This document shows positions 2 to 23,590 of a stretch of 39,573 nt of DNA, one piece after another (position 1 is the stretch's first letter; every line of letters begins with the position of its first letter). This stretch comes from Paracoccaceae bacterium (GTDB lineage: Bacteria > Pseudomonadota > Alphaproteobacteria > Rhodobacterales > Rhodobacteraceae). The position numbers were made by a program, and so were the translations under genes. A model generated the notes under the pieces. It had not been told where the DNA came from and did no database searches. It worked only from the letters and a program-made list of their open reading frames with translations. The DNA lies in assembly GCA_002712045.1 (NCBI GenBank), contig PARX01000056.1, forward strand, positions 1-39,573, read 5' to 3'.

Positions 2-1015
2 ACATTAAAAACAAAAATTGAATCCGTGCTCTCTTCAGGGTTTTTAGATTCACCGCTATTAAAAAATAATATCAAAGTATCTAGTGGAAATTTTATAACT
101 GCTCGACCTATAGGGGTTATTGATGGCACTGATATGGAGTTTACTGGCCAAATCAGAAAAATTGATTCTGAAGCAATATTTAACAAATTAACTAATAAAG
201 AAATTGTTGTTATTTCGCCGCTTGGATATTCACCAATTGGAGATGTATTTAATTTATCTTACGAACAAACGGCAGCTCATATTGCTCAATCAGTTAAAGC
301 TGAAAAATTAATTTATTATGTAAATTCAAGTGGTATCTTAAATATACATGGAGAATTAATTCCAGAATTAACATTTAACAAAGCTAAGCGATTAATTGAA
401 CATATTGAGAATCCCAAAAATGCCCCCTTTATTTCCTATAATGATTTTAATATCCTCAAAAGTAGCTTGTATGCAATTAATAATAAAATTGAGAAAGTAC
501 ACTTAATAAATAGAAATATCGATGGATCCATAATTGAGGAAATTTTTACAGACAAAGGTTCAGGAACAATTCTTACGGAATATTCTCTCGAGAATATAAG
601 AAGTGCCAGAGAAGTAGATATAAATCAAATTAGAAATATTATTAGTCCATTAGAAAAAAAAGGGATACTTGCTGATAGAGTGCACAAGGATATAAGTTCA
701 TTTTATGTCATTGAGCACGACCATAATATAATTGGAACTGTTGCGCTATACCAATATTCTAATTTACTTGAAGTGGCATGCTTTGCAATTCATGATAAAT
801 ATCAAAATCTTGGTTACGGAAAAAAGTTACTGAAATTTTGTGAGAAAAAAGCTTTAGAATTAAATATAAAAGAATTATTTATTCTAACTACGCAATCTGA
901 ACATTGGTTTATTGAAAATAATTTTAAGTTAACAGATAAAAAATTTATGCCTAATGCAAGAAAAAAAATCTATGCCGCTGAACGAAACTCAAAATACTTT
1001 ACCAAAGGGCTATAA
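2..1015 (+). CDS. argA: N-acetylglutamate synthase ArgA, C-terminal ~338 codons (5' end is outside the window)
   Basis: The frame is open from nt 2 to the window edge. It aligns along its length with E. coli ArgA (VSSGNFITARPIGVIDG... kinase-like domain, then a GNAT domain with the QNLGYGKKLL acetyl-CoA motif). TAA stop at 1013-1015. Confidence 0.9.
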   Translation, partial: TLKTKIESVLSSGFLDSPLLKNNIKVSSGNFITARPIGVIDGTDMEFTGQIRKIDSEAIFNKLTNKEIVVISPLGYSPIGDVFNLSYEQTAAHIAQSVKAEKLIYYVNSSGILNIHGELIPELTFNKAKRLIEHIENPKNAPFISYNDFNILKSSLYAINNKIEKVHLINRNIDGSIIEEIFTDKGSGTILTEYSLENIRSAREVDINQIRNIISPLEKKGILADRVHKDISSFYVIEHDHNIIGTVALYQYSNLLEVACFAIHDKYQNLGYGKKLLKFCEKKALELNIKELFILTTQSEHWFIENNFKLTDKKFMPNARKKIYAAERNSKYFTKGL

Positions 1016-1018
1016 AAA

Positions 1019-1876
1019 ATGACTCCAAATGAAAAATCAAAAGTACTAAGTGAAGCATTACCATACATAAAAGAATTTTTTGGGAAAACAATAATTATTA
1101 AATTTGGAGGTAATGCAATGATTGATAAGCGTTTAAAACAATCATTTGCTAAAGATCTAGTGTTGTTAAAATTAGTTGGAATGAATCCAGTTGTCATTCA
1201 TGGTGGTGGACCCCAAATTAACGAATCATTAGCCAAATCAGGTGAAAAACCTATTTTTCAAGAAGGTATTAGAGTTACAAATAAAAAAACATTAGAAATA
1301 GTTATTAATGTCTTAAATGAAGTCAATCAACAAATTATAGATCTTGTAAGAGACAATGGAGGAGATGCTAAAAGCTATAGAAATGAGAAAACTTTAAGCA
1401 TTATTCAAGCTAAAAAATTAGAAGCTAAAGAAAAATCTAACGATCTTGGTTATGTTGGAGAAATAATAGGTATTGATTCATCATTTATGAAACATCTAAA
1501 AGAAGATGGAATAATACCAATTATTGCACCGATAGGAATAGATGGTAATAACAAAACTTACAATATCAACGCTGATGTTGTAGCTTCAAAATTTGCAGAA
1601 ATTTTAACTGCTGAAAAATTAGTACTGATGACAAATACAACAGGTGTTTTAGATAAAAATAAAAAACTAATAACGGGATTAGTTCCAAATGAAATTGAAA
1701 AGCTTATAAGTGATGGGACTATCTCAGATGGTATGCTCCCTAAAATTAATTCTGCTGTTCATGCTGCTAAACATAAAGTAAACTCTGTTCATATTATCGA
1801 TGGGAGAGTTGAACATGCATTATTGCTAGAAATCTTAACTGATCAAGGTGTTGGAACACTTATTAAGGACGAGTAA
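1019..1876 (+). CDS. argB: acetylglutamate kinase
   Basis: 285 aa. N-terminal KFGGNAM amino-acid-kinase motif, with HGGGPQI and NINAD motifs. Starts 3 nt after the argA stop. Confidence 0.93.
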   Translation: MTPNEKSKVLSEALPYIKEFFGKTIIIKFGGNAMIDKRLKQSFAKDLVLLKLVGMNPVVIHGGGPQINESLAKSGEKPIFQEGIRVTNKKTLEIVINVLNEVNQQIIDLVRDNGGDAKSYRNEKTLSIIQAKKLEAKEKSNDLGYVGEIIGIDSSFMKHLKEDGIIPIIAPIGIDGNNKTYNINADVVASKFAEILTAEKLVLMTNTTGVLDKNKKLITGLVPNEIEKLISDGTISDGMLPKINSAVHAAKHKVNSVHIIDGRVEHALLLEILTDQGVGTLIKDE

Positions 1877-1877
1877 T

Positions 1878-2495
1878 TTGGAACATACATGGATATTTGA
1901 TCTTGATAATACATTACATAATGCAGAACAAAAAATATTTCCCGTAATTAATCAAAAAATCAATCATTATATTAGTAAGGAATTAAAAATTAATCTTGAT
2001 GATGCTGATCAATTAAGACAAAAATATTGGGATCAATATGGAGCTACTTTAGAGGGCCTAATTAAATATCACAAAATAAATCCAAATAAATTTTTAGAAG
2101 AAACGCATAAAGTTGATAATCTTGAGGAACTAGTTGTACCTATGCCAAACTTAAAAAATACATTAGATTCAATAAAAGCTCCAAAAATTCTTTATACAAA
2201 TGCCCCTAATAATTATACTAAAACGATACTTAAAAAATGTGATATTGAAGATTACTTTGATAGTATCTTTAGTATAGAAGATGCAAATTTTAAACCAAAG
2301 CCAAGCAAAATTTCAATGGAGCTTTTTCTCAATAAATATAAAATTAAAAAAGCTTATTTTGTTGATGATATAAAAGAAAATCTTGAAACAGCTCATAAAT
2401 TTGGATTATTTACAATATGGCTTTCTAATCATAAAGAAGATCCAAAATTTATTGATAAAAAAATTTCTCAATTAAGTGATTTAATTACTGACTAA
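1878..2495 (+). CDS. HAD-superfamily pyrimidine 5'-nucleotidase-like hydrolase
   Basis: WIFDLDNTLH DxDxT motif at the N-terminus, followed by QYGATLEGL, which is typical of the pyrimidine 5'-nucleotidase subfamily. The likely start is TTG at 1878, just after the argB stop; the ORF-track start at 1848 overlaps argB. Confidence 0.8.
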   Translation: MEHTWIFDLDNTLHNAEQKIFPVINQKINHYISKELKINLDDADQLRQKYWDQYGATLEGLIKYHKINPNKFLEETHKVDNLEELVVPMPNLKNTLDSIKAPKILYTNAPNNYTKTILKKCDIEDYFDSIFSIEDANFKPKPSKISMELFLNKYKIKKAYFVDDIKENLETAHKFGLFTIWLSNHKEDPKFIDKKISQLSDLITD

Positions 2496-3668
2496 TTTTT
2501 TAAGAATAGCGAGTCTTTCTTGGTAAATTAACTCTTTAATTTTTTCCACAGATTTTAATGGGTCTGTTGTACTTCTTATTAGGCTTAATTCTTTCTTGAA
2601 CGATAAAATTAAATTCTTCACTAATTCAATCTTTTTAATTACATTCTTCTTATATGCTAAATTTTCTTCACGCTCTATTGAATGGCTTGATGGGATTGGT
2701 TTGGAGCGTGCTAATATCAAGAAGATGAGCATATCTAAAATTTCCATAGTAATATCAGGACGTCTAAAAAAATCTAATCGATATAAGCAATCTAATTTAT
2801 TTTCTAAAGAAAGAGATAAAAAATTTTCAAGATTTATAGCTTCAGACTTAATACTTTTAAAAAGATTTTTGGCATTTCTTGATAATCTAAAAAAATCTAA
2901 ATAATATTCGTTGTTACTTTCTATTTCTATATCTAAAAGTGAAGGAAGAACCAAAATCATTAAAAATTTAGATTCAGCCTTAATGGAATTAGAGGTATTT
3001 CTAAGGGCTTTTAACAAAGCATGAAAAGGAATACTTGAATAATTAAATTCTGGAAAAATTTCTTTTAAAACACCGCTGGTTTCAAAAGATAAAAACATTT
3101 TATCGGAATGTTTTTCTTCTAAGCCTTTTAATATCTCAGAATAGATTCTTTCAACTGATAAGGACTTAATTTCACCACTGGATACTATTTTTTTTATTAA
3201 CTTTTCAGTGTCTTGGTGAATTTCAAAATCTTTAAATCTTGCATAAAATCTCGCTACTCGAAAAACCCTTAATGGATCTTCACAAAAAGCGTTACTTACG
3301 TGTTTAATTATTTTATTTTTAATGTCATTTACGCCATTAAAAGGATCATAAATTTTTCCATCTTCATCCTCAGCTATTGCATTTATGGTGATATCCCTTC
3401 TTTTTAAGTCTTCTTCCAGGGTAACGGCGGGAGAAGTGAAAAATTTAAAACCGTGGTAACCTTTACCTACTTTTTTTTCTGTTCTTGCAAGAGCATATTC
3501 TTCATTAGTTTTAGGATGTAAGAAAACTGGAAAGTCTTTTCCAATTGGCTTGAAACCTAACTTAATCATTTCTTCAGGGGTACTTCCAACGACAACATAA
3601 TCTCTATCTTTGCTAGAGATACCCATAAGTTTGTCGCGCACTGCCCCTCCTACAAGATAAATATTCAT
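2481..3668 (-). CDS. cca: tRNA nucleotidyltransferase (CCA-adding enzyme), class II
   Basis: The N-terminal half (MNIYLVGGAVRDKLMG...DRDYVVVG...DFPVFLHP...EYALARTE...DLKRRDITINA...EDPLRVFRVARF) is colinear with E. coli Cca. The C-terminal half is divergent. The 3' end overlaps the convergent HAD gene by 15 nt. Confidence 0.9.
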   Translation of the reverse strand: MNIYLVGGAVRDKLMGISSKDRDYVVVGSTPEEMIKLGFKPIGKDFPVFLHPKTNEEYALARTEKKVGKGYHGFKFFTSPAVTLEEDLKRRDITINAIAEDEDGKIYDPFNGVNDIKNKIIKHVSNAFCEDPLRVFRVARFYARFKDFEIHQDTEKLIKKIVSSGEIKSLSVERIYSEILKGLEEKHSDKMFLSFETSGVLKEIFPEFNYSSIPFHALLKALRNTSNSIKAESKFLMILVLPSLLDIEIESNNEYYLDFFRLSRNAKNLFKSIKSEAINLENFLSLSLENKLDCLYRLDFFRRPDITMEILDMLIFLILARSKPIPSSHSIEREENLAYKKNVIKKIELVKNLILSFKKELSLIRSTTDPLKSVEKIKELIYQERLAILKKLVSN

Positions 3669-4558
3669 AGTTTTTTATAGTTATTTAAATATGTAGTCAA
3701 TTCTTTAAGAGAAGATTTAAAATGGTATGAATGGTTTACTTTAACAGTATTGCTAATTTCCATAGATTTCAAATTATCTGTAGTTATTAGTTTAACTGGT
3801 GATAATTGTAGTAAGCTAACAAATAAATAAGACATAGTTTTATTTAGTCCAATAACAATATTTTTCTTTTTATCACAAATAGATATTAGTTTAATAATTT
3901 CTAAAAATGTTAATTTTTTTGGACCTCCAAGATTAAACACTTTTTTATATGTTTTATTATTTTCAATACTCTTAGTAATTATATCCACTAAATCTTCAAC
4001 ATAGATTGGTTGAAACTCAGCTTTAGGAGAAACTAAAAATATTATTGGTAAAAATTTAATCATTTTTTTAAATAAATTTATAAATTTATCTTGCGGTCCA
4101 AATACAATAGATGGTCTAAATATGGTCCAATTAAAGCTCTTAAAATCTTTTTTTATTAAAATCTCTGTTTTGTATTTAGAATTTAAATATTTACTTTCAG
4201 ATGTTTTATTTGCACCTATTGCACTTAAATGAATTAATCTTTTTATATTTTTTTTTAAAGCATACTTTATTAAACTTGATACAAAATTTTCATGTGCCAT
4301 TGAAAATTTTAAATTTCTACTCTCATGGAGAATACCAACTAAGTTAATTATTATATTTGATCCCTCAAGATCATCTGAAAAATCTTTTTTTGGCGAGTAT
4401 TCAATTACTTTAACCCTTGGATAAAACTTCGAGTAATTTATTTTATTTTTTTTTCTTGTAAAAATTCTAATTTCAAAAGGTTTTTTTACTAATTCTTTAA
4501 CTAATTCGGTTCCAATAAATCCAGCACCGCCAAATATTGAAATAACCTTCGTTACCAT
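3665..4558 (-). CDS. NAD(P)-binding atypical SDR, complex I NDUFA9-like / epimerase family protein
   Basis: N-terminal Rossmann motif FGGAGFIGTELV and an S-x-Y-xxx-K-like SKYLNSKYKTE motif. 297 aa. Its TGA stop overlaps the cca ATG (ATGA). Confidence 0.7.
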   Translation of the reverse strand: MVTKVISIFGGAGFIGTELVKELVKKPFEIRIFTRKKNKINYSKFYPRVKVIEYSPKKDFSDDLEGSNIIINLVGILHESRNLKFSMAHENFVSSLIKYALKKNIKRLIHLSAIGANKTSESKYLNSKYKTEILIKKDFKSFNWTIFRPSIVFGPQDKFINLFKKMIKFLPIIFLVSPKAEFQPIYVEDLVDIITKSIENNKTYKKVFNLGGPKKLTFLEIIKLISICDKKKNIVIGLNKTMSYLFVSLLQLSPVKLITTDNLKSMEISNTVKVNHSYHFKSSLKELTTYLNNYKKL

Positions 4559-4737
4559 ATATGTAAATAGCGTAAAGTAAAATAGACTATTGCAATTAAT
4601 AAAATGATTGAAATTAAATAATTAATTGCTGTTTTTGCTAAATATAAATATTTTTTATTTTTGGTGAAAAAATAACAAGCTGTCACAACAGAAAAAAATA
4701 TAACCAGCAAGAAAATACTTAATTTAATAAATATCAT
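4552..4737 (-). CDS. small (61 aa) predicted two-helix membrane protein, function unknown
   Basis: Two hydrophobic stretches (IFIKLSIFLLVIFFSVVTACYFF and INYLISIILLIAIVYFTL) separated by a basic loop. It has an ATGA overlap with the lpxC stop and a 7-nt overlap with the downstream SDR start. I recognised no homology. Confidence 0.5.
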   Translation of the reverse strand: MIFIKLSIFLLVIFFSVVTACYFFTKNKKYLYLAKTAINYLISIILLIAIVYFTLRYLHIW

Positions 4738-5684
4738 TGTATTTTTTCTAAATAATTCTTCCTAAAATTATTTTTTTCTTTTATATAATTAGTTGCTAAA
4801 GAAGCTTTTTCTTTATCCTCAAGATCTAATAACTCTATTGCCCATTTTGTCTTATTTTCAAGCATTAATCTAAGCAATTTATTATTAAGCTCATGGCCTG
4901 ATTTATATGCTGTAAATTTTCCAATAATTGGCATTCCAATCATATATAAATCTCCAATTGCATCTAGAATTTTATGGCGAACAAATTCATCTGAATACCT
5001 TAAACCTTCTTCATTTAAGATTTTATATTCATCCAAAACAATAGCATCATCTAAAGAACCTCCTCTAGCTAATCCATTAGCTCGAAGATATTCAACTTCT
5101 TGCATAAATCCAAATGTTCTTGCCCTACTAATAAAATTAACATAAGAATCTTTAAAAAAATCTATTTCAACTCTATTATTTTCTTCTTTAAAAGCTGGAT
5201 GCGGAAAATCAATTGTAAAATCGACTAAAAATCCATTATAAGGTTCGAATTTAGCATATTTATCTTCTTCTTGAACTTTTATTTCTTCTTTAATAACAGC
5301 AAATCTTTTTGGTTTTAATTGCTCATAAATTACTGCAGAATTTATTAAATAAACAAATGGGATAGAGCTTCCATCCATAATAGGTATTTCAGAACCGTCA
5401 ACTTCAATTAATATATTATCAATGCCAGAAGCAGAAAGGGCTGACATTAGATGTTCAATAGTTGAAATTTTTGTTTTTCCCTTACCAATTGTAGATGATA
5501 ATCGAGTTTCTTTTATGGCTTTTGGTTCTACCTGAATCTCTATTGGTAAATCAAGATCAGTTCTTTTAAATATTATCCCACTATCTTCTTTAGCGGGCTT
5601 TAATGTTATTCGAGTCTTTTTCCCTGAATGAAGGCCTACCCCTACTGCACTGACTTCGTTTTTAATTGATCTTTGAAAAATCAT
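4734..5684 (-). CDS. lpxC: UDP-3-O-acyl-N-acetylglucosamine deacetylase
   Basis: 316 aa. The opening MIFQRSIKNEVSAVGVGLHSGKK, plus TIEHLMSAL and HKILDAIGDL motifs, are typical of LpxC. The ATG directly abuts the ftsZ TAG stop (TAGATG). Confidence 0.95.
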   Translation of the reverse strand: MIFQRSIKNEVSAVGVGLHSGKKTRITLKPAKEDSGIIFKRTDLDLPIEIQVEPKAIKETRLSSTIGKGKTKISTIEHLMSALSASGIDNILIEVDGSEIPIMDGSSIPFVYLINSAVIYEQLKPKRFAVIKEEIKVQEEDKYAKFEPYNGFLVDFTIDFPHPAFKEENNRVEIDFFKDSYVNFISRARTFGFMQEVEYLRANGLARGGSLDDAIVLDEYKILNEEGLRYSDEFVRHKILDAIGDLYMIGMPIIGKFTAYKSGHELNNKLLRLMLENKTKWAIELLDLEDKEKASLATNYIKEKNNFRKNYLEKIQ

Positions 5685-6908
5685 CTAATTTTTTCTTCTC
5701 ATAAATGAAGGAATATCATACTCTTCCTCAGTTGACATTCTCAGTTTATCAAGATCATCACCTTCAGGTGAATTATTTCCAAACACATTAGGGCTTTCTT
5801 TCTTATTTTCTTCAATATTTTCATGATCCTCTAAGTTTATTTTTTCATTTTCATTTTCATTTTCATTTTCATCAGCGTCATAAACAAATTCTCTCATAAC
5901 ATCATTATTATTTTGACTTGAATCTTTAGCTAAATTTAATTTTTCTTCTTCTTTTAAGTAGGACAAACCTGTAGCAACCATAGTAACTCTTATATCGTTA
6001 CCCATTGAATCATCTATTACATTTCCAACAATTACATGAGCATTCTCTGCAGCATATTGTTTAATTGTATTCATAACTTCAAAATATTCCTTCATTTTAA
6101 AATCACTACTTGCAGAAATATTTACTAACATTCATTTCGCATTATTGAGATTAACATCTTCTAATAATGGACATGCAACTACTTGTTTTGTAGCATTTGA
6201 TGCCCTGTCTGAACCTTCTGCTGTTCCTGAGCCAATCATTGCCATACCCATTTCACTCATAACAGTTTTAACATCAGCAAAATCTACATTAATCAATCCT
6301 GGATTATTGATAATTTCAACAATACCTGAAACTGCACTGTACAAAACATCATTTGCAGCTCCGAATGCATCTACAAAAGTTACATCAGGGCCAAGGACGC
6401 CCATTAATTTTTCATTTGGTATAGTAATAAGTGAGTCAACATGATTTACAAGTTCATCAATTCCATCATTTGCAATTTGAACCCTTCTTCCTTCAAAATT
6501 AAATGGTTTTGTAACAACAGCTACAGTTAAAATACCTAACTCTTTAGCAATTTGTGCTATTACAGGAGTAGCTCCAGTACCTGTACCACCTCCCATTCCA
6601 GCAGCAAGAAAAAGCATATCAGCCCCTTCAAGAGATTCAATTATCTTATCTTTATCGTCTAATGCAGCTTGTTTACCTTTATCTGGTCTTGCTCCAGCAC
6701 CAAGTCCTTGAGTTAAAATTTCTCCGATTTGTACAATTGTGCTTGCTTGACTTTTTTTTAATGATTGTAAATCAGTATTTGCGCATATAAATTCAACTCC
6801 CATTACATTCTTTTTAATCATGTAATCAACAGCATTGCCTCCGCAACCACCAACACCCATAACTTTAATAATGGCTTTTTGCTTTTTACCTTCTATGACT
6901 TCAAACAT
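5685..6908 (-). pseudogene. ftsZ: cell division GTPase FtsZ, interrupted as sequenced by one in-frame TGA (6132-6134); could also be an error or a recoding/reinitiation site
   Basis: ORFs 6132..6920 and 5685..6131 are contiguous and in the same frame. Joined, they give a 407-residue reading frame (counting from MFEV, TGA codon excluded). It has [29 protein letters not shown], a variable linker and the C-terminal DIPSFMRRK peptide. The likely start is the ATG at 6906-6908 (MFEV..., as in E. coli MFEP...). Confidence 0.85.
5842..5871 (-). repeat. hexanucleotide tandem repeat (TTTTCA on +, TGAAAA on -) x5, encoding (Glu-Asn)n in the FtsZ linker
   Basis: Five perfect consecutive 6-nt units were read directly. 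They translate to DENENENENEK in the disordered linker of FtsZ. Confidence 0.9.
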
Positions 6909-6926
6909 AATCAATCTCACATCGCA

Positions 6927-8189
6927 TTAAAAGTTTCCTTTGAACCAATTTTTTGCTCTTTTTAAAATTTCACTCACTGAATTTCCAGTACCTGATTTGT
7001 ATTCACTCTTTTCTACATCACTTTTACCCATAATTAATAAACCTACTCCAGTTGCATATCTTGGGTTCTCTACAACCTGTAAAAGTCCATCAATATTTCT
7101 TGGTATACCAATTCTAACAGGCATATTAAATATTTTCTCCCCTAACTCAACCATACCTTTTAACATAGAAGATCCCCCAGTAATTACAATCCCTGAAGCA
7201 ATTGTACTTCCCATTCGACTTCTATTAATTTCATTTTGTACTTTTTCAAAAAGCTCCTCTATTCTTGGCTCTATAACTTGAGCCAAAGCCTGAGTTGTTA
7301 TTCTTTTAGGTGCTTGACCATGAACAAGAGGTATCTCAATAATTTCATTAGTAGATGACAAACTTGGCATAGCAGACTCATATGTTTCTTTAATATCTGA
7401 TGCAGATTGGGTTGGAGTTTGAAAGGCAATTGCAATATCATTGGTTATTTGATCACCAGCAACAGGAATTACAGAAGTATGTTGAAATGCTCCATTTTTA
7501 ATTACAGCAATATCAGTGGTTCCTCCTCCAATATCAATTAGACACACACCTAATTCTTTTTCATCTTGAGTTAAAACAGCTTCACTTGAAGCTAAAGGCT
7601 GAAAAACCAAATCAATAACCTCCAAGCCACATCTTCTTATACATTTAATAATATTCTGACGTGCAGCAATTGAACCAGAGATCATATGAACTTTAACATT
7701 AAGTTTCATTCCGCTCATCTCTAATGGCTCTTTAATATCTTGTTGATCATCAATGATATATTCTTGAGGTAGTGTATGTAGAACTTCTTGATCAGTTGGT
7801 AGATTAATTGCTTCAGCTGTTTCTCTAACTCGATCGATATCCATTTGCGTTACTTCTTCATCTTTAATTTTTACCATACCATGAGAATTCAAACTTTTAA
7901 TATGACTTCCTGCAATTCCAGTATATACCTCGGTTATTTTACAATCTGCCATTAATTCTGCTTCTTCAACAGCTCTCTGTATTGCCTGCATTGTGTTATC
8001 AATATTAACAACAACACCTTTTTTTAGGCCTTTTGATACATGTTGGCCCTTACCAATAATTTTTAAAACACCATCAGATTGTAACTCAGCAACAATTACA
8101 ACTACCTTTGATGTTCCTATATCAAGAGCAGAAATTCTTGTATTTTGGTCTTTTTTACTTTTCATTATTGGTGGAATAACGTTATTCAT
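6927..8189 (-). CDS. ftsA: cell division protein FtsA
   Basis: 420 aa actin-like ATPase with ALDIGTSKVVVIV, DIGGGTTDIAV and VITGGSS motifs. Confidence 0.95.
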   Translation of the reverse strand: MNNVIPPIMKSKKDQNTRISALDIGTSKVVVIVAELQSDGVLKIIGKGQHVSKGLKKGVVVNIDNTMQAIQRAVEEAELMADCKITEVYTGIAGSHIKSLNSHGMVKIKDEEVTQMDIDRVRETAEAINLPTDQEVLHTLPQEYIIDDQQDIKEPLEMSGMKLNVKVHMISGSIAARQNIIKCIRRCGLEVIDLVFQPLASSEAVLTQDEKELGVCLIDIGGGTTDIAVIKNGAFQHTSVIPVAGDQITNDIAIAFQTPTQSASDIKETYESAMPSLSSTNEIIEIPLVHGQAPKRITTQALAQVIEPRIEELFEKVQNEINRSRMGSTIASGIVITGGSSMLKGMVELGEKIFNMPVRIGIPRNIDGLLQVVENPRYATGVGLLIMGKSDVEKSEYKSGTGNSVSEILKRAKNWFKGNF

Positions 8190-8932
8190 AATGCAGTCTT
8201 TTTTTGTTTATTTATCTTATTTAATTTTTCATTAAGTTTTTTTACTGCAAATCCATCCTTATATCTAAGATCTATATACTCGATTTGACTTTTCAATTCT
8301 GATAAAACATGATGATAATTTTCCATTAAGATATTTAATTTATTAACAATAATATTATTTTTTTCCTTGCCTAAAAAAATTCTCATATAATTGTTTGTAT
8401 AAATTTCCCATGATAATCTTTTCGATAATGAGATTGTACCAATTTGCATCGACTCTTTCTCAAGAATTTTATTTATTTGATTATATTTTACTGTCATTTC
8501 TTCAACAAACTCCTCTGGGCCAACAAATAATGGTAAATCATCTTCATATGCAGCATGAAATATTTCTCCAAAATTGTTAACAAGCCCACGATTTTTCCAT
8601 CTTGCAATTGGTTTATGTGATTCAATTTCTACCAATAAGCCAAAATTATTCCAATCTCTTCGAATACTTACGTCCCTTATCCAAGGTAATTTTTTAAAAG
8701 CTTGTCTTGTAGATTCAAGATTGATTCCAAAAAAATTCTCATTTATAAACTTGTTTTTAATCAAGTTAATTTGTCTTTTATTTATATTTTCATATTCCCC
8801 CTTTATACCTATTTGAGTTATTGGAAAATTAGAACTTGTCATTAATTGATAACTTAAAAATATTAAAGTTAAAAAAATGAATATATAAACAGTAGTTGTA
8901 ACTTTTCTTATTGTGCTTTCCTTTTTAAGCAT
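8186..8932 (-). CDS. ftsQ: cell division protein FtsQ
   Basis: 248 aa with an N-terminal TM helix followed by POTRA-like IKGEYENINKRQI...LPWIRDVSIRRDWN. Sits between ddl and ftsA, and its stop makes an ATGA overlap with ftsA. Confidence 0.88.
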   Translation of the reverse strand: MLKKESTIRKVTTTVYIFIFLTLIFLSYQLMTSSNFPITQIGIKGEYENINKRQINLIKNKFINENFFGINLESTRQAFKKLPWIRDVSIRRDWNNFGLLVEIESHKPIARWKNRGLVNNFGEIFHAAYEDDLPLFVGPEEFVEEMTVKYNQINKILEKESMQIGTISLSKRLSWEIYTNNYMRIFLGKEKNNIIVNKLNILMENYHHVLSELKSQIEYIDLRYKDGFAVKKLNEKLNKINKQKKTAL

Positions 8933-9845
8933 TTGATGTCTCTAAAATCATAATTACTAAATCATCAAAACTAATTCCAGAATATTTTGCAGACATTGGC
9001 ACAAGGCTATGATTTGTCATTCCAGGGACTGTATTGACTTCAATAATAAATATTTTTTCATTTTCATCAATTATAAAATCTACTCTACCACATCCTTCAC
9101 ATCCAATAGAATCAAAAGCTTTTTTACATTCTTGATTAATATTTTTAACTAATTTTTCACTAAGTTTAGCGGGGCAAATAAATTCAGTGTCATCTCTTAA
9201 ATATTTAGCCTCATAGTCATAAAAATCAGTTTTAGATCTAATCTCTATAATAGGGTATGTTTTGTTATGAATAATAGGTAAGGTGTACTCCTTTCCCTCA
9301 ATTAAAGATTCAACAATAACGATTTTATCAATTTTGGATGCTTCATTGAATGCATTTGCAAACTCTTGGTGATTATTGACTTTTGCAATACCAATACTTG
9401 AGCCTGAATTTGCTGGTTTAATAAAAAAAGGTAATTTACATATTTTTGAAGCTATTTTAAAATCTGATATATTTTTGACCTGCAAAAAATCAGGTGTGAT
9501 GATATTTTTCTTTTTCCAGACTGTTTTACATCTAAATTTGTCCATACCTACAGACGAGGAATCAATTCCACTTCCAGTATAAGGAATATTTATTTTTTCT
9601 AAAAAATTTTGTATTTTTCCATCTTCACCATCTTTTCCATGAAGACAAATAAAAGCTCTATCAAATTTTTTTAACTGTTCTAAATCATCAATTTTTGGAT
9701 CGAATCTTTCTGCAACTATTTTTTTTCTACGAAGTGCATCTAAAACTGCAATTCCACTTTCTAATGAAATATCTCTTTCATTAGAAATTCCACCCATTAA
9801 TACAGCTACTTTGCCGTATTGACTAGCTTCCAAATTTTTCTCCAA
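8925..9845 (-). CDS. ddl: D-alanine--D-alanine ligase
   Basis: 306 aa. Motifs VAVLMGGISNERDISL, HGKDGEDGKIQ and ATP-grasp EVNTVPGMT. Confidence 0.95.
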   Translation of the reverse strand: MEKNLEASQYGKVAVLMGGISNERDISLESGIAVLDALRRKKIVAERFDPKIDDLEQLKKFDRAFICLHGKDGEDGKIQNFLEKINIPYTGSGIDSSSVGMDKFRCKTVWKKKNIITPDFLQVKNISDFKIASKICKLPFFIKPANSGSSIGIAKVNNHQEFANAFNEASKIDKIVIVESLIEGKEYTLPIIHNKTYPIIEIRSKTDFYDYEAKYLRDDTEFICPAKLSEKLVKNINQECKKAFDSIGCEGCGRVDFIIDENEKIFIIEVNTVPGMTNHSLVPMSAKYSGISFDDLVIMILETSNA

Positions 9846-10698
9846 TTATTTTTATTTCTGTTTGAAGTGTTATATTTTTCTTCTTTAAAACTACTTGTTG
9901 TATGTGATCAATCACTTTTTCAATATCTAATGCACTAGCATTCCCTAAATTAACGATAAAATTTGCGTGTTTTTTTGAAACTTGAGCCCCTCCAATTTGA
10001 AAGCCTTTTAATCCACAATCCTCAATTATCTTTGCAGCAAAATTATCTTTTGGGTTTCGAAAAGTTGAGCCTGCCGTTGGCCAATTTAATGGTTGTGTTT
10101 TTTTTCTATGTGACAATAATTCTTTTATCTTATTTTTTGCATCTTCTTTATTTCCATTTGGAAACTGAAACCATGCTCCAAGAAAACTTTCATCTTTATT
10201 ATTAACCTCTCTATAATCAATTTTAAAATTTGATTTATTTCTAATAATTTGGTCACCATTTAAATCAATCATTAATACTTTTTTTACATATTCCCATGTT
10301 TCTGAACCATAGCAACCTGCATTCATTGCTAGAGCCCCACCTATGGTTCCTGGAATTCCGGCAAAAAAAGCTGATTCATCAAACCCTTCTTTAGCTGCAA
10401 ATCTTGATAACTTTGAACAACTTACTCCAGCTTCAGCATAAAGTAATTTACCATCTCTATTTATTTTATTTAAACCACCATGCATCACTATTATTGTTCC
10501 TTTAACTCCCCCATCTCTAATTAATAAATTAGAGCCTAGTCCAATATAAGTAATAGGCGGCTTTATTTTTTTTGATTTAATATGTAAAGCAAGTTTTGCT
10601 ATGTTGTCACAAATTAAAAATTGTTCGGCTTTTCCTCCAACCCGCCAACTATTGAAGCTCTTTAATTCTACATTTTGATGAACAATATTTTTTTCCAT
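9823..10698 (-). CDS. murB: UDP-N-acetylenolpyruvoylglucosamine reductase
   Basis: 291 aa with FAD-binding motifs WRVGGKAE and IGLGSNLLIRD, then AGSTFRNP. Overlaps the ddl start by 23 nt. Confidence 0.93.
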   Translation of the reverse strand: MEKNIVHQNVELKSFNSWRVGGKAEQFLICDNIAKLALHIKSKKIKPPITYIGLGSNLLIRDGGVKGTIIVMHGGLNKINRDGKLLYAEAGVSCSKLSRFAAKEGFDESAFFAGIPGTIGGALAMNAGCYGSETWEYVKKVLMIDLNGDQIIRNKSNFKIDYREVNNKDESFLGAWFQFPNGNKEDAKNKIKELLSHRKKTQPLNWPTAGSTFRNPKDNFAAKIIEDCGLKGFQIGGAQVSKKHANFIVNLGNASALDIEKVIDHIQQVVLKKKNITLQTEIKIIGEKFGS

Positions 10699-10701
10699 AT
10701 T

Positions 10702-12081
10702 TTATTTTTTTATAATTTGCTTAATAAAATTTCCAACTGAACCAGCTCCCATTACAATAAGAATTGAATTATCTTCAATTAAATCAAATATAGTATTTTT
10801 TGCTGTCTTAAAATTAGGTAGATAATGAACATCTTGTTTCTTAATAGACTTAATTAAATTTCTTGTTGTAATATTTTTTATAGTTTTTTCACCAGCCGAG
10901 TAAATATCAAAAAGAAAAACCTTATCTGGAATTTTTAAAACTCTTATAAATTCTTTATAACAATCTCTTGTTCTTGAATACCTATGTGGCTGAAAAACTA
11001 AATAAATTCTTTTTTTACTAAATCCCTTTTTTGTTGCTTTAATTACCGCTTCAATTTCAGTTGGATGGTGCCCATAATCATCAATAACTTTTAATCTTTT
11101 ATCTTTGATTAAAATATCATCGTATATCTCGTATCTCCTAGCCACTCCTTTAAAGTTACTTATTGATCTTTTAATATTACTTATAGATACACCATATTCA
11201 AGACCAATTGAAATTGCTACAAGAGTATTTCTTACAAAATGTTCGCCAGGAAAATTAATTCCAATTTCAAATTCATCTTTTTTATATTTTTTATCTCGAA
11301 CTTTAAAATACATCTTACTGCCATCATATCTTACATTTAGTCCTTGAATATCTGCTTTACTTGAAAAACCATATGTAGTTATTGGTCTTGATATTAAAGG
11401 TATGATACTTTTTACATGTTCATCATCTAAGCATAAGAAGACAGATCCATAAAATGGTACCTGATGAATAAAATCAATATAAGTTTGTTTCAAATTTTCG
11501 AATTTATTCTGATAGGCCTCTAAATGATCTTTGTCGATATTAGTAATAACTGCATTTACAGGATTTAAATGAAGAAATGATGCATCTGATTCATCAGCCT
11601 CTACAATCATTAAATCACTCCCTCCAAGTTTTGCATTTGCATTCATTGAGTTAAGTCTGCCACCAATGACGTAAGTTGGGTCTAGTTTTCCTTCAGAGAG
11701 TATTGAAGCAATTAAACTAGTTGTCGTTGTTTTTCCATGTGTTCCTGCAACTGCAATACCTTTTTTAAATCGCATTAATTCAGATAACATTTCTGCTCTG
11801 GGAATAATCGGTATTTTATATTTAATTGCAGCTTTAATTTCTGGATTGCGTTTAGAGATGGCTGCTGAAATAACAACAACATCTGAATGTATAACATTTT
11901 TTTCTAAATGCTTATTAAATACTTTTATTCCTAATTTCTTTAAACGTTGGATCGCTTCAGATTTTCCAAGATCTGAACCCTGTACTTTAAATCTTAAATT
12001 GTGCATGACCTCAGCGATTCCGCTCATACCAGAACCACCAATTCCAACAAAATGTATATTTTTAATTTTATTTTCCATCAA
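10702..12081 (-). CDS. murC: UDP-N-acetylmuramate--L-alanine ligase
   Basis: 459 aa. Motifs IHFVGIGGSGMSGIA, AVAGTHGKTTTTS and DDYGHHPTEI. Confidence 0.95.
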   Translation of the reverse strand: MMENKIKNIHFVGIGGSGMSGIAEVMHNLRFKVQGSDLGKSEAIQRLKKLGIKVFNKHLEKNVIHSDVVVISAAISKRNPEIKAAIKYKIPIIPRAEMLSELMRFKKGIAVAGTHGKTTTTSLIASILSEGKLDPTYVIGGRLNSMNANAKLGGSDLMIVEADESDASFLHLNPVNAVITNIDKDHLEAYQNKFENLKQTYIDFIHQVPFYGSVFLCLDDEHVKSIIPLISRPITTYGFSSKADIQGLNVRYDGSKMYFKVRDKKYKKDEFEIGINFPGEHFVRNTLVAISIGLEYGVSISNIKRSISNFKGVARRYEIYDDILIKDKRLKVIDDYGHHPTEIEAVIKATKKGFSKKRIYLVFQPHRYSRTRDCYKEFIRVLKIPDKVFLFDIYSAGEKTIKNITTRNLIKSIKKQDVHYLPNFKTAKNTIFDLIEDNSILIVMGAGSVGNFIKQIIKK

Positions 12082-13144
12082 ACCTTTCTTTACAGTAAGA
12101 ATATATTTTTTGGGCTACATTTGAACTTGATTTATTTTTTTGAGCATTTAAAGCCATTTGATAGCATTTTTTTCTATCTATTTTTAAAAGAGTTCCTAAG
12201 AGTTTATTTTTTACCTCATTCTCCTCAATTATGAAAGCTGCTTTTTTATCTTCTAATATTTTGCCATTATGATACTGATGATTATCAACAGCATATGGAA
12301 ATGGTATCAATATTGAAGCAATACCTGCTTCCATAAATTCTGATATAGTAAGTGCTCCGAATCTAGCAATAACGATATCAGCCCATTCATATTTTTCCTC
12401 AATATCGTATATAAATTTTTCTTTACCCAATAACCAAATAGGATCTCTTGATTCGTTGGTATCTAAATTCATATATGTTCTTTCTAATTCCTCATAATGC
12501 TTTTCACCAGATTGATGAATAACTGAAATTTGCTCACTTAAATTAAATTTATCTAAAATTCTTGGTAATAATCTATTAAAAGTACTTGCTCCTAAACTTC
12601 CTCCTAAAATAAGAATTTTAAGGGGTCCTGTTTTATTTTTAAATCTTTGTTGAGGATTTCTAATCTTAGAAATTTTTTTTCTTATTGGATTTCCTATCAC
12701 TTTCGCCTTTTTTAAACTATTTCTAAATCCACAAAATATCTGACTAGCAAAGTTTGAAATAACTTTATTTGCTAATCCAGGTATCGCATTTTGCTCATGA
12801 ATAATTAATTCTATTCCAAGAATTTTAGAAGCAATTGCCATAGGTATACCAACATAACCTCCCATCAATATCAAAAAATTTGGTTTTTCAGTTCGTAAAA
12901 TTTTAATAGACTGAACTGTTGATAATAAAAGAACGAATGGTAGGTTAAACCAAGGCAAAATACCTTTACCCCTAACACCAGATATACTAATTTGAGAAAA
13001 AAGAATTTTTTGTTTATCTACTAAACTATTTTCCATGCCTTTAGGTGTTCCAACCCATGAAACAGAATGAGATTGCTCCAAAAAATACTCAGCAATTGCA
13101 AGCCCAGGGTATATATGCCCCCCTGTGCCAGCAGCAGCAATCAT
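12068..13144 (-). CDS. murG: undecaprenyldiphospho-muramoylpentapeptide beta-N-acetylglucosaminyltransferase
   Basis: 358 aa. Motifs AAAGTGGHIYPGLAIAE and EQNAIPGLANK, plus a C-terminal GALTISE motif. Confidence 0.95.
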   Translation of the reverse strand: MIAAAGTGGHIYPGLAIAEYFLEQSHSVSWVGTPKGMENSLVDKQKILFSQISISGVRGKGILPWFNLPFVLLLSTVQSIKILRTEKPNFLILMGGYVGIPMAIASKILGIELIIHEQNAIPGLANKVISNFASQIFCGFRNSLKKAKVIGNPIRKKISKIRNPQQRFKNKTGPLKILILGGSLGASTFNRLLPRILDKFNLSEQISVIHQSGEKHYEELERTYMNLDTNESRDPIWLLGKEKFIYDIEEKYEWADIVIARFGALTISEFMEAGIASILIPFPYAVDNHQYHNGKILEDKKAAFIIEENEVKNKLLGTLLKIDRKKCYQMALNAQKNKSSSNVAQKIYSYCKERFDGK

Positions 13145-13154
13145 AATTTTAAAT

Positions 13155-14324
13155 TTATTTGTTATAGTGTTGTCCTCTCAAATTTCTTCTATTCTCATGA
13201 TCAATTCTAAGTACTATTGCTATAGCAATTACACTCACTAAAATACTACTACCTCCAAAAGATAATAATGGGAGTGTTAAGCCTTTGGTAGGAAATAATC
13301 CTAAATTTACAGCCATATTAATTATGCATTGAATGGAAAACCATATAGCTACCCCTTGTGCCATTAAAGCACCAAAATGTTTATTATTTTGTATAGACTC
13401 TTTTGCAATACCAAACATCCTTAGCACCAAAAATGCAAATATACCTAAAACAATACTTACACCCAATAAACCAAATTCTTCGCCAATAATTGCCATAATA
13501 AAATCTGTATGCGCTTCGGGTAAAAAAGAAAGTTTTGCGAAACTATTTCCTACGCCGATGCCAAAAAACTCCCCTTTTCCAAAAGCCATTTGTGCTTGAG
13601 TTATTTGATAACCACCATCTAGTATGTGCTCTGGAGACCAAGGATCTCTGAATGCCTCAATTCTTGCTAATCTGTATGGTGATGACTTTATTGCTAACAA
13701 GACTCCAATTGGAGCCAATATAGCTAAACTTACAATAACTTTTAAGGTCAATCCACCCAAAAATAGAATACCCATTGCAATCGAAGAAATTACAATTAAA
13801 GCACCAAGATCTGGTTCTAAGATTACTAATGAACCGGTTAAAATCATAATCCCCAAAATAGGTAAAAAACCTTTAACAATAGTTCTCATTTGCTTTGATT
13901 TTCTTAAAACATAATCTGATGCATACATTATTGTAAAAAGCTTAACTATCTCTGTAGGTTGAAAGTTTGCAATTCCTAATGGAATCCATCTTCTACCACC
14001 TTTACTTTCTATACCAATAGGCGTTAAAACTAAGACTAAAAGAATTACCCCTATTAAAAACAAATAAGGGGCCCACCTTTGCCAGAAATAAACTTGTATT
14101 AGGAAAGAAATGTAGCCACATATAAAAGCAATTAACAAATAAGCTGATTGCCTGAGTAAAAAATAATAATGTTGGTATTGGAATTCCTGTTTACCAGCAG
14201 CAAGATCAATCGATGCAGAATAGACCATAACTAAACCAATACCTATAAGCAAAAGTGCTGCCCAGATTAAGCTGTAATCATAAATTGGTAAATTATAATT
14301 TTTTTGGGAAGAAAAAAGTTTCAT
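13155..14324 (-). CDS. ftsW: SEDS-family peptidoglycan glycosyltransferase FtsW
   Basis: 389 aa polytopic membrane protein with FQPTEIVKL and LPEAHTDFIMAIIGEEFG motifs, at the canonical dcw position. Confidence 0.93.
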   Translation of the reverse strand: MKLFSSQKNYNLPIYDYSLIWAALLLIGIGLVMVYSASIDLAAGKQEFQYQHYYFLLRQSAYLLIAFICGYISFLIQVYFWQRWAPYLFLIGVILLVLVLTPIGIESKGGRRWIPLGIANFQPTEIVKLFTIMYASDYVLRKSKQMRTIVKGFLPILGIMILTGSLVILEPDLGALIVISSIAMGILFLGGLTLKVIVSLAILAPIGVLLAIKSSPYRLARIEAFRDPWSPEHILDGGYQITQAQMAFGKGEFFGIGVGNSFAKLSFLPEAHTDFIMAIIGEEFGLLGVSIVLGIFAFLVLRMFGIAKESIQNNKHFGALMAQGVAIWFSIQCIINMAVNLGLFPTKGLTLPLLSFGGSSILVSVIAIAIVLRIDHENRRNLRGQHYNK

Positions 14325-14327
14325 ACT

Positions 14328-15658
14328 TTATAAATTCTCCACAATAGACTTAAATTCATTACCACGTTCTTCATAATTTTTATACATATCATAACTAGCA
14401 CATGCAGGCGATAATAGAATGATATCTCCATTTCCTGCATCCTTATATGCTGATAAAACTGCATCTAGCATTAACTTATATTTTTTTATCTTAAGTGAAT
14501 CTATAAATCTGAAATTTTCTTCAAAAATATGTGCATCTTGACCAATTAAATAAAGAGCTAATACCTTTTTTTTTATAAATTTCTCCAAAGGCATTAAAAA
14601 TTGACCTTTACTATCACCACCAGCAATTAAAAAAATATTTTTTTGTTAAAACTTTTTAAAGCTGTAATTGTTGCATCTAAATTAGTCGCTTTTGAGTCGT
14701 TGTAAAAATCTACACCGTTTATACTTTTAACCCACTCTAATCGATGACTAATACCTTTTAAATTATTAATTCTTAAATTACTTAATTCTGGAAAAACCGA
14801 TTTTAAGCATGCAATTGCAGACATAATATTTAATTTATTATGTTCGCCTATGAGTTTAAAATTATTTAATTCAATAGATAATCCATCACCTCTTTTTATA
14901 TAAGAACCAGAATCATTATTTATTATTACGTAGTCTTCTTTTTTTAAGGGTTCTGAAATACCAAAAGAGAAATTCACTTTATTATTAAAAGAACTTAATT
15001 TTTCATCGTCCCTATTAATAATTTTAGTTCTTGATAAATCAAGTAATTTTGATTTAGCCTTAAGATATTTACTGAAAGAATTATATCTATCCATATGGTC
15101 TTCTGAAATATTTAGAATAATTCCAACATCAATTTTAGCTTTATTTAATATTTCGAGTTGAAAACTTGATAGTTCAATAATCAAAACATCTAAAGTATCT
15201 ACATTTTTGAAATCTAAAATTGGCAAGCCTATGTTTCCTACTGCCTTTGCTTTTAATCCAGATTCTTGTGACAATTGTTCAATCATTTTACAAACTGTAG
15301 TTTTACCATTTGTCCCAGTTACAGCAATAACTTTTGTTTCTAATAATTCATTTTCATCAAAAAATAACGAGATATCATTATGGAACTTAATTTTTTTTCT
15401 TATTTTATTTAATACGGGATGGCTAGGATCTATTCCAGGACTAATTGCAACATAATCAACACCTTCAAAAGATAATTCTTCTAAATTACCTGAAAAGAAT
15501 AAATTTTTTTCATTATCAAACAACTTTTTTGCATTATCCAAAGCATTTTTATTTTCATCATAAAAAGATATTTTAATATTGTTTTTTAAATATCTTCCAA
15601 TAGATATGCCTGTTTGGCCGCAACCTAAAATTAATACATGATTGATATTTCCATTCAT
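14328..15658 (-). pseudogene. murD: UDP-N-acetylmuramoylalanine--D-glutamate ligase MurD, frameshifted as sequenced (1 nt apparently missing in the A7-TAT-T7 tract around 14629-14645)
   Basis: The N-terminal ORF (14627..15661: ILGCGQTG, VTGTNGKTTV, NDSKATN) ends ...NKKIFF-TAA. The other frame continues from 14645 as (Q K N I F) LIAGGDSKGQ...[22 protein letters not shown]. This is colinear with E. coli MurD (...LLLGGDGKSAD...[22 protein letters not shown]). Confidence 0.85.
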
Positions 15659-16761
15659 CAACGAATCTTCAAACTAGCCAATCCAATTAGGACAAGCATC
15701 ATGGTTATGATCCAGAACCTAACTACGACTTGTGTTTCTTTCCATCCTTTTTTTTCATAGTGATGATGAAGCGGAGCCATTAAAAAAATACGTTTACCTT
15801 TTCCAAATTTCTTCTTTGTATATCTAAAGTAAGCTACTTGTATTGCTACTGAGAATGTCTCAATCACAAATATTCCAGCCATAATCATTAAAACAATCTC
15901 TTGCCTTACAATTACTGCTAGAGTTCCCATTGCAGCTCCTATTGATAGTGAGCCTAAATCACCCATAAATACTTCAGCAGGATATGCATTAAACCAAAGA
16001 AAACCTAAGCCTGCTCCTGCTAATGCTGCGCAAAATACAGTTAACTCACCTGCACCTTGTATATATGGAATACTGAGATAGTTTGCAAAAATTACATTGC
16101 CTTCAACATAAGCAAAAACTCCCAATGCACTTATCACCATAACAGCTGGCATAATAGCCAGCCCATCAAGACCATCGGTTAAATTGACGGCATTACTGCT
16201 TCCTACTACAACCAAATAACTTAAAATAATAAATACCAATGCACTCATTGATAAACTTAAATCCTTAAAAAATGGGATCAATAATTGAGTTTCTTGAGGA
16301 GTTGAAGCTGAATAAAATAAGTAGGTTGCTACACCCAACCCAATAATTGATTGAAGTATAAATTTTTTAAAAGCTGAGAGTCCATCTGCCTCTTTTTTTT
16401 GAATTTTACTAATGTCATCGATTAAGCCAATTAACCCAAAAGAAGTGGTCACAATAAGTAAGAGCCATACATATGAATTACTTAAATCTGCCAATAATAA
16501 TGTAGAAATAATAATTGAAATTAATATTAAACCCCCTCCCATTGTTGGGGTTCCAGATTTTACAAGATGTCCCTCTGGACCATCATTTCTAATATATTGA
16601 CCAAGGCTGTATTCTCCTAATTTTTTTATAAACCAACCACCAAAACAAAATGAAATTAATAAAGAAGTTATAACTGCTAAAACTGCCCTTAAAGAAATAT
16701 AATTAAATACATTAAAACCTGGAATGTCTGTTGAAAACCATCTAAATAATTCTAATAACAT
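15658..16761 (-). CDS. mraY: phospho-N-acetylmuramoyl-pentapeptide transferase
   Basis: 367 aa. Motifs [19 protein letters not shown] and [12 protein letters not shown]. Confidence 0.96.
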
Positions 16762-16774
16762 CTTTTATATCCTA

Positions 16775-21334: not shown

Positions 21335-21588
21335 TTAATAATCACTTTTTTTTCTTCCTTACTAGGAACACGCATATTCAATTTATGTTTGGCAGATTTT
21401 TCAATTATTTCAATTCTTGATTCAGACGATTCCTCAATTCTTAGCATCGTTTGCTGGTCTTTTAAATCTAAAGTTTTCTTATTTTCTTCATCTAATTCAG
21501 CATAATTATTTCTCGTTTGATGCTTAAAATTAACTGTAGTTAATGCAAAAATAATCAAGACAACAAATAAAATTAAATTTAATTTCAT
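21331..21588 (-). CDS. ftsL: cell division protein FtsL
   Basis: 85 aa with an N-terminal TM helix and a coiled-coil-like region. Sits between rsmH and ftsI, with an ATGA overlap with ftsI. Confidence 0.85.
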   Translation of the reverse strand: MKLNLILFVVLIIFALTTVNFKHQTRNNYAELDEENKKTLDLKDQQTMLRIEESSESRIEIIEKSAKHKLNMRVPSKEEKKVIIK

Positions 21589-21589
21589 T

Positions 21590-22962: not shown

Positions 22963-22980
22963 ATGTGTACCTAAAAAGAT

Positions 22981-23570: not shown

Positions 23571-23590
23571 TATTTATTTTACACTCTTAA

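What the first reader, a model, noticed from the sequence alone, without database searches (positions are those of the whole stretch)
6129..6137. In-frame TGA in ftsZ at the position of a near-invariant glycine, immediately followed by ATG
The two FtsZ ORFs are contiguous and in the same frame. The junction reads ...[25 protein letters not shown].... It aligns residue for residue with E. coli ...SPLLEDIDLSGAR-G-V-LVNITAG.... The TGA therefore replaces the conserved Gly before strand S8 (GGA to TGA is one substitution).

Everything downstream is intact, including the core strands (VIVGNVID, IRVTMVATG) and the C-terminal FtsA-binding peptide DIPSFMRRK. If this is an inactivation, it is very recent.

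Possible explanations:
1. A base-call, consensus or minority-allele artefact.
2. A genuine nonsense codon tolerated through low-level readthrough.
3. A two-piece FtsZ made by termination-reinitiation at UGA-AUG. The break falls in the loop before S8, where fragment complementation is conceivable.
4. Incipient loss of ftsZ in a host-dependent lineage.

Neither the UGA-A context nor the downstream sequence shows an obvious SECIS-like hairpin.
Basis: partly seen in the sequence, partly recalled or inferred. Interest (0 to 1): 0.7.

Follow-up and report, generated by a model that had tools for sequence, protein, structure and literature searches.

The report
Assembly error stop codon in ftsZ
The stop codon inside the cell-division gene ftsZ is real in this sequence record, but it is one of many random-looking single-base errors peculiar to this one metagenome-assembled contig; every other assembly of the same marine bacterium has the normal glycine codon, so nothing biological needs explaining.

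Summary
ftsZ (5685..6908, minus strand) has an in-frame TGA at 6132-6134 (codon 259), followed by ATG, at a glycine that 79 of 80 relatives keep.

It is not a biological feature.
- The window is a whole 39,573-nt contig of a public MAG. The MAG is labelled Rhodobacteraceae, but the content is OM43-type Methylophilaceae.
- Ten independent contigs of the same population are 99.2-99.9% identical to it.
- In the five contigs that cover ftsZ, the gene matches at 1223 of 1224 nt. The only difference is GGA instead of TGA.
- A census of 34 more metagenome contigs of the clade gives 31 GGA, 3 GGG and 0 TGA.
- Beyond position 1000 the window carries 37 private substitutions, about 1 per kb. Seventeen are G:C>T:A, and the 16 coding ones are 13 missense, 3 nonsense and 0 synonymous. 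That is what unselected random hits predict.
- The other two nonsense changes truncate ftsI and an ArnT-like glycosyltransferase. A 1-nt homopolymer deletion frameshifts murD.
- Natural variation in the same region is 82% synonymous.
- TGA is an ordinary stop for nine other genes, and there is no SECIS-like structure.

Verdict: sequencing, assembly or DNA-damage artefact. Low interest.

The parts
5685..6908 (-). ftsZ: 407 codons plus the stop codon (TAG). Identical at 1223 of 1224 nt to the gene on five independent Tara Oceans contigs.
6132..6134 (-). In-frame TGA at codon 259. The population has GGA (Gly). The difference is a single G>T on the coding strand (plus strand 6134: A here, C elsewhere).
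6129..6131 (-). ATG = Met260. This is the ancestral codon, found as GGA-ATG or GGG-ATG in all 41 relatives matched by the codon-census pattern (which itself requires ATG at that codon), and as Met in the close relatives L001/L002. It is not a dedicated restart codon.
20210..20212 (-). Second private nonsense change: ftsI (PBP3) codon 375, TCA>TAA. It splits a 591-aa protein into 374 + 211 aa.
29688..29690 (+). Third private nonsense change: ArnT-like glycosyltransferase codon 514, GAA>TAA. It removes the last 31 of 544 residues.
14638..14644 (-). T7 run where the population has T8. This 1-nt deletion frameshifts murD (443 aa elsewhere; a 344-aa ORF here).
1001..39573 (.). Span holding the 37 substitutions private to this contig, of which 17 are G:C>T:A. 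The ftsZ TGA is one of them.

Best explanation
The TGA is an error, or a non-heritable DNA lesion, fixed in this one contig. It is not a feature of the organism. The true codon is GGA (Gly259), and FtsZ is made as one ordinary 407-residue protein.

Shown:
- The allele is private to this contig.
- It belongs to a set of about 17 G:C>T:A changes, scattered evenly over the contig, that show no trace of purifying selection and that also truncate ftsI and an ArnT-like gene.
- murD is additionally broken by a homopolymer indel.

Inferred:
- The changes arose during sequencing or assembly. A plausible route is a low-coverage primary contig that fixed Illumina G>T miscalls or 8-oxoguanine-type oxidation artefacts and was carried into a MAG by a pipeline that pools per-sample assemblies.
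- Alternatively they came from damaged template DNA.
For: 1. Identity of the contig. The window's proteins are NCBI MBC67256-MBC67286, 'MAG... Rhodobacteraceae bacterium', on a contig of 39,573 nt.

2. The intact protein is common. P0001 equals the window's FtsZ with Gly at the stop, 100% over 407 aa, and is carried by 23 contigs read (listed in 28 blocks of the collection). Variants P0002, P0003 and P0004 also have Gly.

3. Nucleotide comparison. Five contigs from different Tara samples match ftsZ at 1223 of 1224 nt, and the only difference is GGA against TGA.

4. Codon census. Of 34 further metagenome contigs of the clade, 31 have GGA, 3 have GGG and none has TGA, while the flanking synonymous sites vary. 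Among 80 GTDB species, 79 have Gly and 1 has Ala.

5. Private changes. Against 10 independent contigs covering 38.3 kb, the window has 37 private substitutions beyond position 1000. Seventeen are G:C>T:A. The 16 coding ones are 13 missense (including W>L twice, W>C, C>F, G>V, G>W), 3 nonsense and 0 synonymous. Random unselected G:C>T:A hits on these genes predict 12.7, 2.3 and 1.1.

6. Contrast with natural variation. Natural variation in the same alignments is 55 synonymous to 12 nonsynonymous. Fisher's test against the G:C>T:A class gives p = 6e-10.

7. Other broken genes on the same contig: ftsI, murD and the ArnT-like gene.

8. A clean duplicate. The same MAG holds a second copy of part of the region with the population alleles (MBC67211, 67215, 67217 against the window's MBC67280, 67284, 67286).

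9. Known cause of this spectrum. G>T/C>A changes are the recognised read-out of 8-oxoguanine when damaged template is copied (PMC11060043).

10. A pipeline that could produce this. The Tully 2018 ocean-MAG pipeline pools per-sample Megahit contigs, collapses them only at 99% identity and merges them with Minimus2 at MINID=95 (PMC5769542). Such a pipeline can retain near-duplicate, low-quality contigs. That this MAG comes from that study is my inference from the accession style.
Against: No reads were available, so read support for the T allele was not measured. The precise source of the errors is inferred, not shown.

The G>T changes show no distinctive sequence context.

Of the 20 private changes outside the G:C>T:A class, 19 are coding. 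Ten of these are synonymous, so part of the private variation is probably genuine strain difference. The contig is not simply noise.

At the rsmH poly(A) tract it is the window that has the intact reading frame, while most other assemblies are frameshifted.
Confidence: 0.93

Rival explanations
1. A genuine but private nonsense mutation, present in a rare, doomed or heavily damaged cell lineage, or in extracellular or dead-cell DNA, that the assembler happened to follow. The ftsZ of that DNA molecule really was broken.
For: The contig shows some genuine strain-level variation: 10 synonymous private changes and a divergent left end with 46 synonymous against 9 nonsynonymous differences. The G:C>T:A excess fits in-vivo oxidative damage as well as in-vitro damage.
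Against: About 1 unselected change per kb, with three nonsense codons and one frameshift, three of these four in genes normally essential for division and wall synthesis (ftsZ, ftsI, murD), within 38 kb. That load is incompatible with a propagating lineage. No other contig shares any of these alleles.
Confidence: 0.04
2. UGA is decoded, either by low-level readthrough, by selenocysteine, or by a UGA=Gly or UGA=Trp genetic code, so that full-length FtsZ is still made.
For: The TGA lies exactly on a Gly codon, as it would under translation table 25.
Against: TGA terminates nine other genes in the window, several in ATGA overlaps. No other gene among roughly 12,000 codons has an internal TGA.

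The relatives have GGA or GGG, not TGA.

There is no significant downstream hairpin and no RNA element other than RNase P RNA.

The window's formate dehydrogenase alpha subunit, the usual place for selenocysteine, has no in-frame TGA.

The other two private nonsense codons are TAA.
Confidence: 0.01
3. A two-piece FtsZ made by termination-reinitiation at UGA-AUG, with the fragments complementing each other.
For: The stop and the ATG are adjacent, and the downstream part is intact.
Against: The ATG is the ancestral Met260 codon found in all relatives next to GGA. The split occurs in no other contig. The gene shows no other change that would suggest adaptation to a split. The break falls inside the C-terminal subdomain of the globular core.
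Confidence: 0.01
4. Incipient loss of ftsZ in a host-dependent, genome-reducing lineage.
For: Low G+C (30%) and compact gene arrangement.
Against: The contig belongs to an abundant planktonic Methylophilaceae population recovered from many ocean metagenomes. It has a complete dcw cluster, and ftsZ is invariant at the nucleotide level apart from this one base.
Confidence: 0.01

Closest known systems
Consensus errors in metagenome-assembled contigs, with G>T/C>A changes typical of oxidised guanine or Illumina miscalls
   Same: The changes are private to one assembly. They show a GC>AT-biased spectrum dominated by G:C>T:A and a neutral ratio of missense, nonsense and synonymous changes. There are additional homopolymer-length differences, and a cleaner duplicate contig sits in the same bin.
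   Different: Read-level evidence (coverage, strand or read-orientation bias) could not be examined. No CCG-type or other context preference was seen.
Translation table 25 (UGA = Gly) of Gracilibacteria and Absconditabacteria
   Same: A UGA sits at the position of a conserved glycine.
   Different: This is a single occurrence. UGA is used as a stop by nine other genes in the window. The organism is a betaproteobacterial methylotroph whose close relatives use GGA here.
Selenocysteine recoding of UGA (bacterial SECIS directly downstream)
   Same: An in-frame UGA in an otherwise intact gene.
   Different: There is no SECIS-like hairpin. The replaced residue is Gly, not Cys. The relatives carry neither Cys nor TGA at this position.
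Recent nonsense pseudogenes in genome-reducing bacteria
   Same: One premature stop in an otherwise undegraded gene.
   Different: The allele is not shared by any other member of the population. It is accompanied by other unselected hits in genes normally essential for division and wall synthesis on the same contig.

Membership tests
Sequencing/assembly artefact | The allele is absent from independent assemblies of the same population. | tested here: met
   GGA in five contigs that are otherwise identical across ftsZ. Zero TGA among 34 further clade contigs. The intact protein is on 23 contigs read.
Sequencing/assembly artefact | The allele is accompanied by other private changes that show no purifying selection. 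| tested here: met
   The 16 coding G:C>T:A changes are 13 missense, 3 nonsense and 0 synonymous, against a random expectation of 12.7, 2.3 and 1.1. Natural variation is 82% synonymous; p = 6e-10. murD is also frameshifted.
Sequencing/assembly artefact | Weak or biased read support for the variant base. | not testable with these tools
   No reads or coverage data are available.
Alternative genetic code with UGA as sense (tables 4 and 25) | In-frame UGA recurs in many genes at conserved Trp or Gly positions. | tested here: not met
   ftsZ has the only internal TGA among about 40 genes.
Alternative genetic code with UGA as sense (tables 4 and 25) | UGA is not used as a terminator. | tested here: not met
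   Nine genes end in TGA at the position where the orthologues in other contigs end.
Alternative genetic code with UGA as sense (tables 4 and 25) | A tRNA with anticodon UCA is present and release factor 2 is lost. | not testable with these tools
   The window holds no tRNA genes, and the rest of the genome is not available.
Selenoprotein gene | A SECIS stem-loop lies immediately 3' of the UGA. | tested here: not met
   The MFE of the 86 nt from the UGA is -12 kcal/mol, z = -1.16 against shuffles. The Rfam scan found only RNase P RNA.
Selenoprotein gene | Homologues carry Cys or Sec at the aligned position. | tested here: not met
   Gly in 79 of 80 relatives and Ala in 1.
Naturally split gene / termination-reinitiation | The split is conserved in related genomes. 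| tested here: not met
   All relatives encode one uninterrupted FtsZ.
Naturally split gene / termination-reinitiation | The restart codon or ribosome-binding site is acquired specifically with the split. | tested here: not met
   The ATG is the ancestral Met260 codon. The upstream sequence is unchanged from the intact genes.

The most novel reading that the evidence does not exclude
The T allele and its companion G>T changes are real in the sampled DNA. They would record heavily oxidised genomes of dead or dying OM43-type cells, or their free DNA, abundant enough in one ocean sample to be assembled. The contig would then be a snapshot of in-situ oxidative DNA damage rather than a laboratory artefact. 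A still less likely version is that a living subpopulation tolerates the ftsZ UGA through readthrough.
Probability: 0.03. Interest if true: 0.45.

Novelty: not a real feature. Interest (0 to 1): 0.04.

Why it matters
It matters mainly as quality control. A public MAG contig carries about one erroneous base per kb, enough to create false pseudogenes in ftsZ, ftsI, murD and a glycosyltransferase. It is also filed under the wrong family.

Scans for recoding, split genes or gene loss will keep flagging such contigs. A quick comparison with sibling assemblies, plus a test of the synonymous-to-nonsynonymous ratio of private differences, separates them from real biology.

Had the stop been real, a split or recoded FtsZ in a free-living bacterium would have been remarkable. 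The evidence says it is not real.

Tried and rejected
- Exact-sequence look-ups of the two FtsZ fragments (three start choices) and of two small window proteins found nothing. This was later explained: ftsZ has no protein record in the deposited annotation, and many window proteins carry private substitutions.
- A strict 35-nt DNA pattern across the junction found no metagenome contig. A codon-degenerate pattern was needed.
- I first suspected a single-cell amplified genome as the source of the G>T load, because the closest GTDB genomes are SAGs. I dropped this when the contig proved to belong to a MAG.
- A search for a sequence context or clustering of the G>T changes found none. They are spread evenly.
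- A genetic-code change was rejected on stop-codon usage.
- SECIS was rejected on folding.
- No tRNA genes and no relevant Rfam hit were found.
- I first misread the ArnT-like gene's shortening as an N-terminal TGA. The alignment shows it is a C-terminal GAA>TAA change.

Full report
**1. The observation**

The window is AT-rich (30% G+C). On its minus strand it carries a complete division and cell-wall (dcw) cluster: mraZ-rsmH-ftsL-ftsI-murE-murF-mraY-murD-ftsW-murG-murC-murB-ddl-ftsQ-ftsA-ftsZ-lpxC.

ftsZ occupies 5685..6908. Codon 259 is TGA (6132-6134), followed directly by ATG (6129-6131). The two ORFs are in the same frame.

The position is Gly in 79 of 80 species-level relatives. It aligns with the Gly of NLQGARGILVNITA in P. 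aeruginosa FtsZ.

**2. Is UGA special in this genome?**

No.
- When TGA is treated as sense, ftsZ is the only gene of about 40 with an internal TGA.
- Nine genes (the epimerase gene, lpxC, ftsQ, mraY, ftsI, rsmH, mraZ, rsmI and the BON-domain gene) terminate at TGA, several in ATGA overlaps.
- The window has no tRNA gene and no structured RNA other than RNase P RNA.
- The 86 nt from the UGA fold no better than shuffles, z = -1.16.

**3. What relatives carry**

A scan of one genome per GTDB species placed the locus in marine Methylophilaceae. The closest genomes have FtsZ at 82-84% identity and read ...NNAKGMLVNISASS....

A protein search then found P0001: 407 aa, 100% identical to the window's two ORFs joined with Gly. 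It comes from NCBI, JGI, ENA and Tara sources. Length variants in the ENEN repeat also have Gly.

P0001 is encoded on at least 23 contigs. Five representative loci from different samples are 99.2-99.9% identical to window 6..16907. Across the 1224 nt of ftsZ they differ from the window at exactly one base, GGA against TGA.

A codon-degenerate pattern spanning the junction recovered 34 further metagenome contigs of the clade. Of these, 31 have GGA, 3 have GGG and none has TGA, while neighbouring synonymous sites vary freely. In every one the following codon is ATG, so the ATG is the ancestral Met260 and not a restart signal.

**4. The rest of the contig**

I aligned ten independent contigs (L081-L090) over 38.3 kb of the window.

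*Natural variation.* Differences among those contigs, and the divergent left end of the window (23-977), look like natural variation: 55 synonymous against 12 nonsynonymous.

*Private changes.* Beyond position 1000 the window has 37 substitutions that none of the others share, about 1 per kb. Twenty-nine of them start from G or C in a 30% G+C sequence, and 17 are G:C>T:A.

*The G:C>T:A class.* All 16 coding changes alter the protein:
- 13 are missense, including W>L twice, W>C, C>F, G>V, G>W, P>Q and D>Y twice.
- 3 are nonsense: ftsZ G259* (TGA), ftsI S375* (TCA>TAA at 20210-20212) and the ArnT-like glycosyltransferase E514* (GAA>TAA at 29688-29690).

*Comparison with a random model.* Enumerating every possible G:C>T:A change in these genes predicts 79% missense, 14% nonsense and 7% synonymous. 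For 16 hits that is 12.7, 2.3 and 1.1. The observed 13, 3 and 0 match this. The contrast with natural variation gives p = 6e-10.

*A frameshift as well.* A T8>T7 homopolymer deletion (14638-14644) frameshifts murD.

One contig therefore carries lesions in ftsZ, ftsI and murD, genes normally essential for division and wall synthesis, and truncates a fourth gene. It does so at the frequency expected if no selection had ever acted on these changes. The ftsZ TGA is simply one of the 2-3 nonsense codons that such a load predicts.

**5. Provenance**

Exact-sequence look-ups identify the window as a complete 39,573-nt contig of an NCBI MAG called 'Rhodobacteraceae (Paracoccaceae) bacterium', with proteins MBC67256-MBC67286 and locus tag CML63_11340.

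The accession numbering leaves no protein record between lpxC (MBC67256) and the number I assign to ftsA (MBC67257). ftsZ was therefore evidently not given a protein by the annotators. This is an inference.

The same MAG also contains a second copy of part of the region, with protein numbers offset by exactly 69. That copy carries the population alleles: the intact 544-aa glycosyltransferase MBC67211, FdsB MBC67215 and MoaA MBC67217. The window carries the private alleles (MBC67280, MBC67284, MBC67286).

The accession style suggests the Tully et al. 2018 ocean MAG set; this is my inference. That pipeline assembles each sample with Megahit, collapses contigs only at 99% identity or more, and merges them with Minimus2 at MINID=95 (PMC5769542). 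Such a procedure can keep a low-quality near-duplicate beside a clean contig and can create mosaic ends.

**6. Mechanism of the error (inferred)**

G>T/C>A is the known read-out of 8-oxoguanine when damaged DNA is copied (PMC11060043). From general knowledge, it is also a frequent Illumina substitution type.

A rate near 1e-3 per base is of the order of raw read error. This suggests that parts of the contig rest on very low coverage.

The G>T sites have no special context and are evenly spaced. Without reads I cannot separate library damage, base-calling error and real damage in the sampled DNA.

**7. Rivals**

- *A genuine private mutation in a rare or damaged lineage.* This cannot be formally excluded, but it would require a cell line carrying about 1 unselected change per kb, including hits in three division and wall-synthesis genes.
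- *Readthrough, selenocysteine or code change.* These fail on stop usage, lack of SECIS, the Gly identity in relatives, and the fact that the companion nonsense codons are TAA.
- *Termination-reinitiation.* This fails because neither the split nor any adaptation to it exists outside this contig.
- *Gene loss in a host-dependent lineage.* This fails because the population is planktonic and widespread, and its ftsZ is invariant.

**8. Verdict**

The sequence feature is there, but it is an artefact of this record. Novelty: not a real feature. Interest: very low, apart from its value as a warning about this MAG contig.

Noticed in passing
window 22263-22274 (rsmH, 21590..22528, minus strand): Poly(A) tract inside rsmH. 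The window has A12 and an intact 312-aa ORF. Three independent contigs of the same population have A11 and a frameshift (96 + 215 aa). In the large protein collection the split products occur on 59 and 48 contigs, and the intact form on only 4. This is either real tract-length variation, possibly rescued by slippage, or systematic homopolymer under-calling.
   Followed up: partly
window 16775-18121 (murF, minus strand); candidate start at 18116-18118: The MurF reading frame is open for 448 codons and encodes a recognisable MurF N-terminal domain, but it has no ATG, GTG or TTG in its first 125 codons. A GGAG followed by ATT overlaps the murE stop (ATTAA), which suggests an ATT start codon. Gene callers truncate the protein to 323 aa in this contig and in the Tara contigs.
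   Followed up: partly
window 20210-20212, 29688-29690, 14638-14644: Three more genes are broken only in this contig: ftsI (TCA>TAA), an ArnT-like glycosyltransferase (GAA>TAA, loses 31 residues) and murD (T8>T7 frameshift). They have the same origin as the ftsZ stop.
   Followed up: yes
whole window: The contig is deposited in a MAG named Rhodobacteraceae/Paracoccaceae bacterium. Its genes are Methylophilaceae (OM43-like; FtsZ 82-84% identical to Methylophilaceae SAGs; 30% G+C), so it is misbinned. The same MAG also holds a second, cleaner copy of part of this region (MBC67208-67217 against MBC67277-67286), so it is redundant.
   Followed up: partly
window 23-977: There are 57 differences from the Tara contigs within 1 kb: 46 synonymous, 9 nonsynonymous and 2 intergenic. 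The next 38 kb differ at about 0.1%. Another assembly breaks at window position 1021. This looks like a strain-variable segment or a mosaic join made during contig merging.
   Followed up: partly
window 5820-5870 (ftsZ linker, minus strand): The GAA-AAT (Glu-Asn) repeat in the FtsZ C-terminal linker varies in copy number between otherwise identical proteins of the population (405, 407 and 409 aa forms).
   Followed up: no
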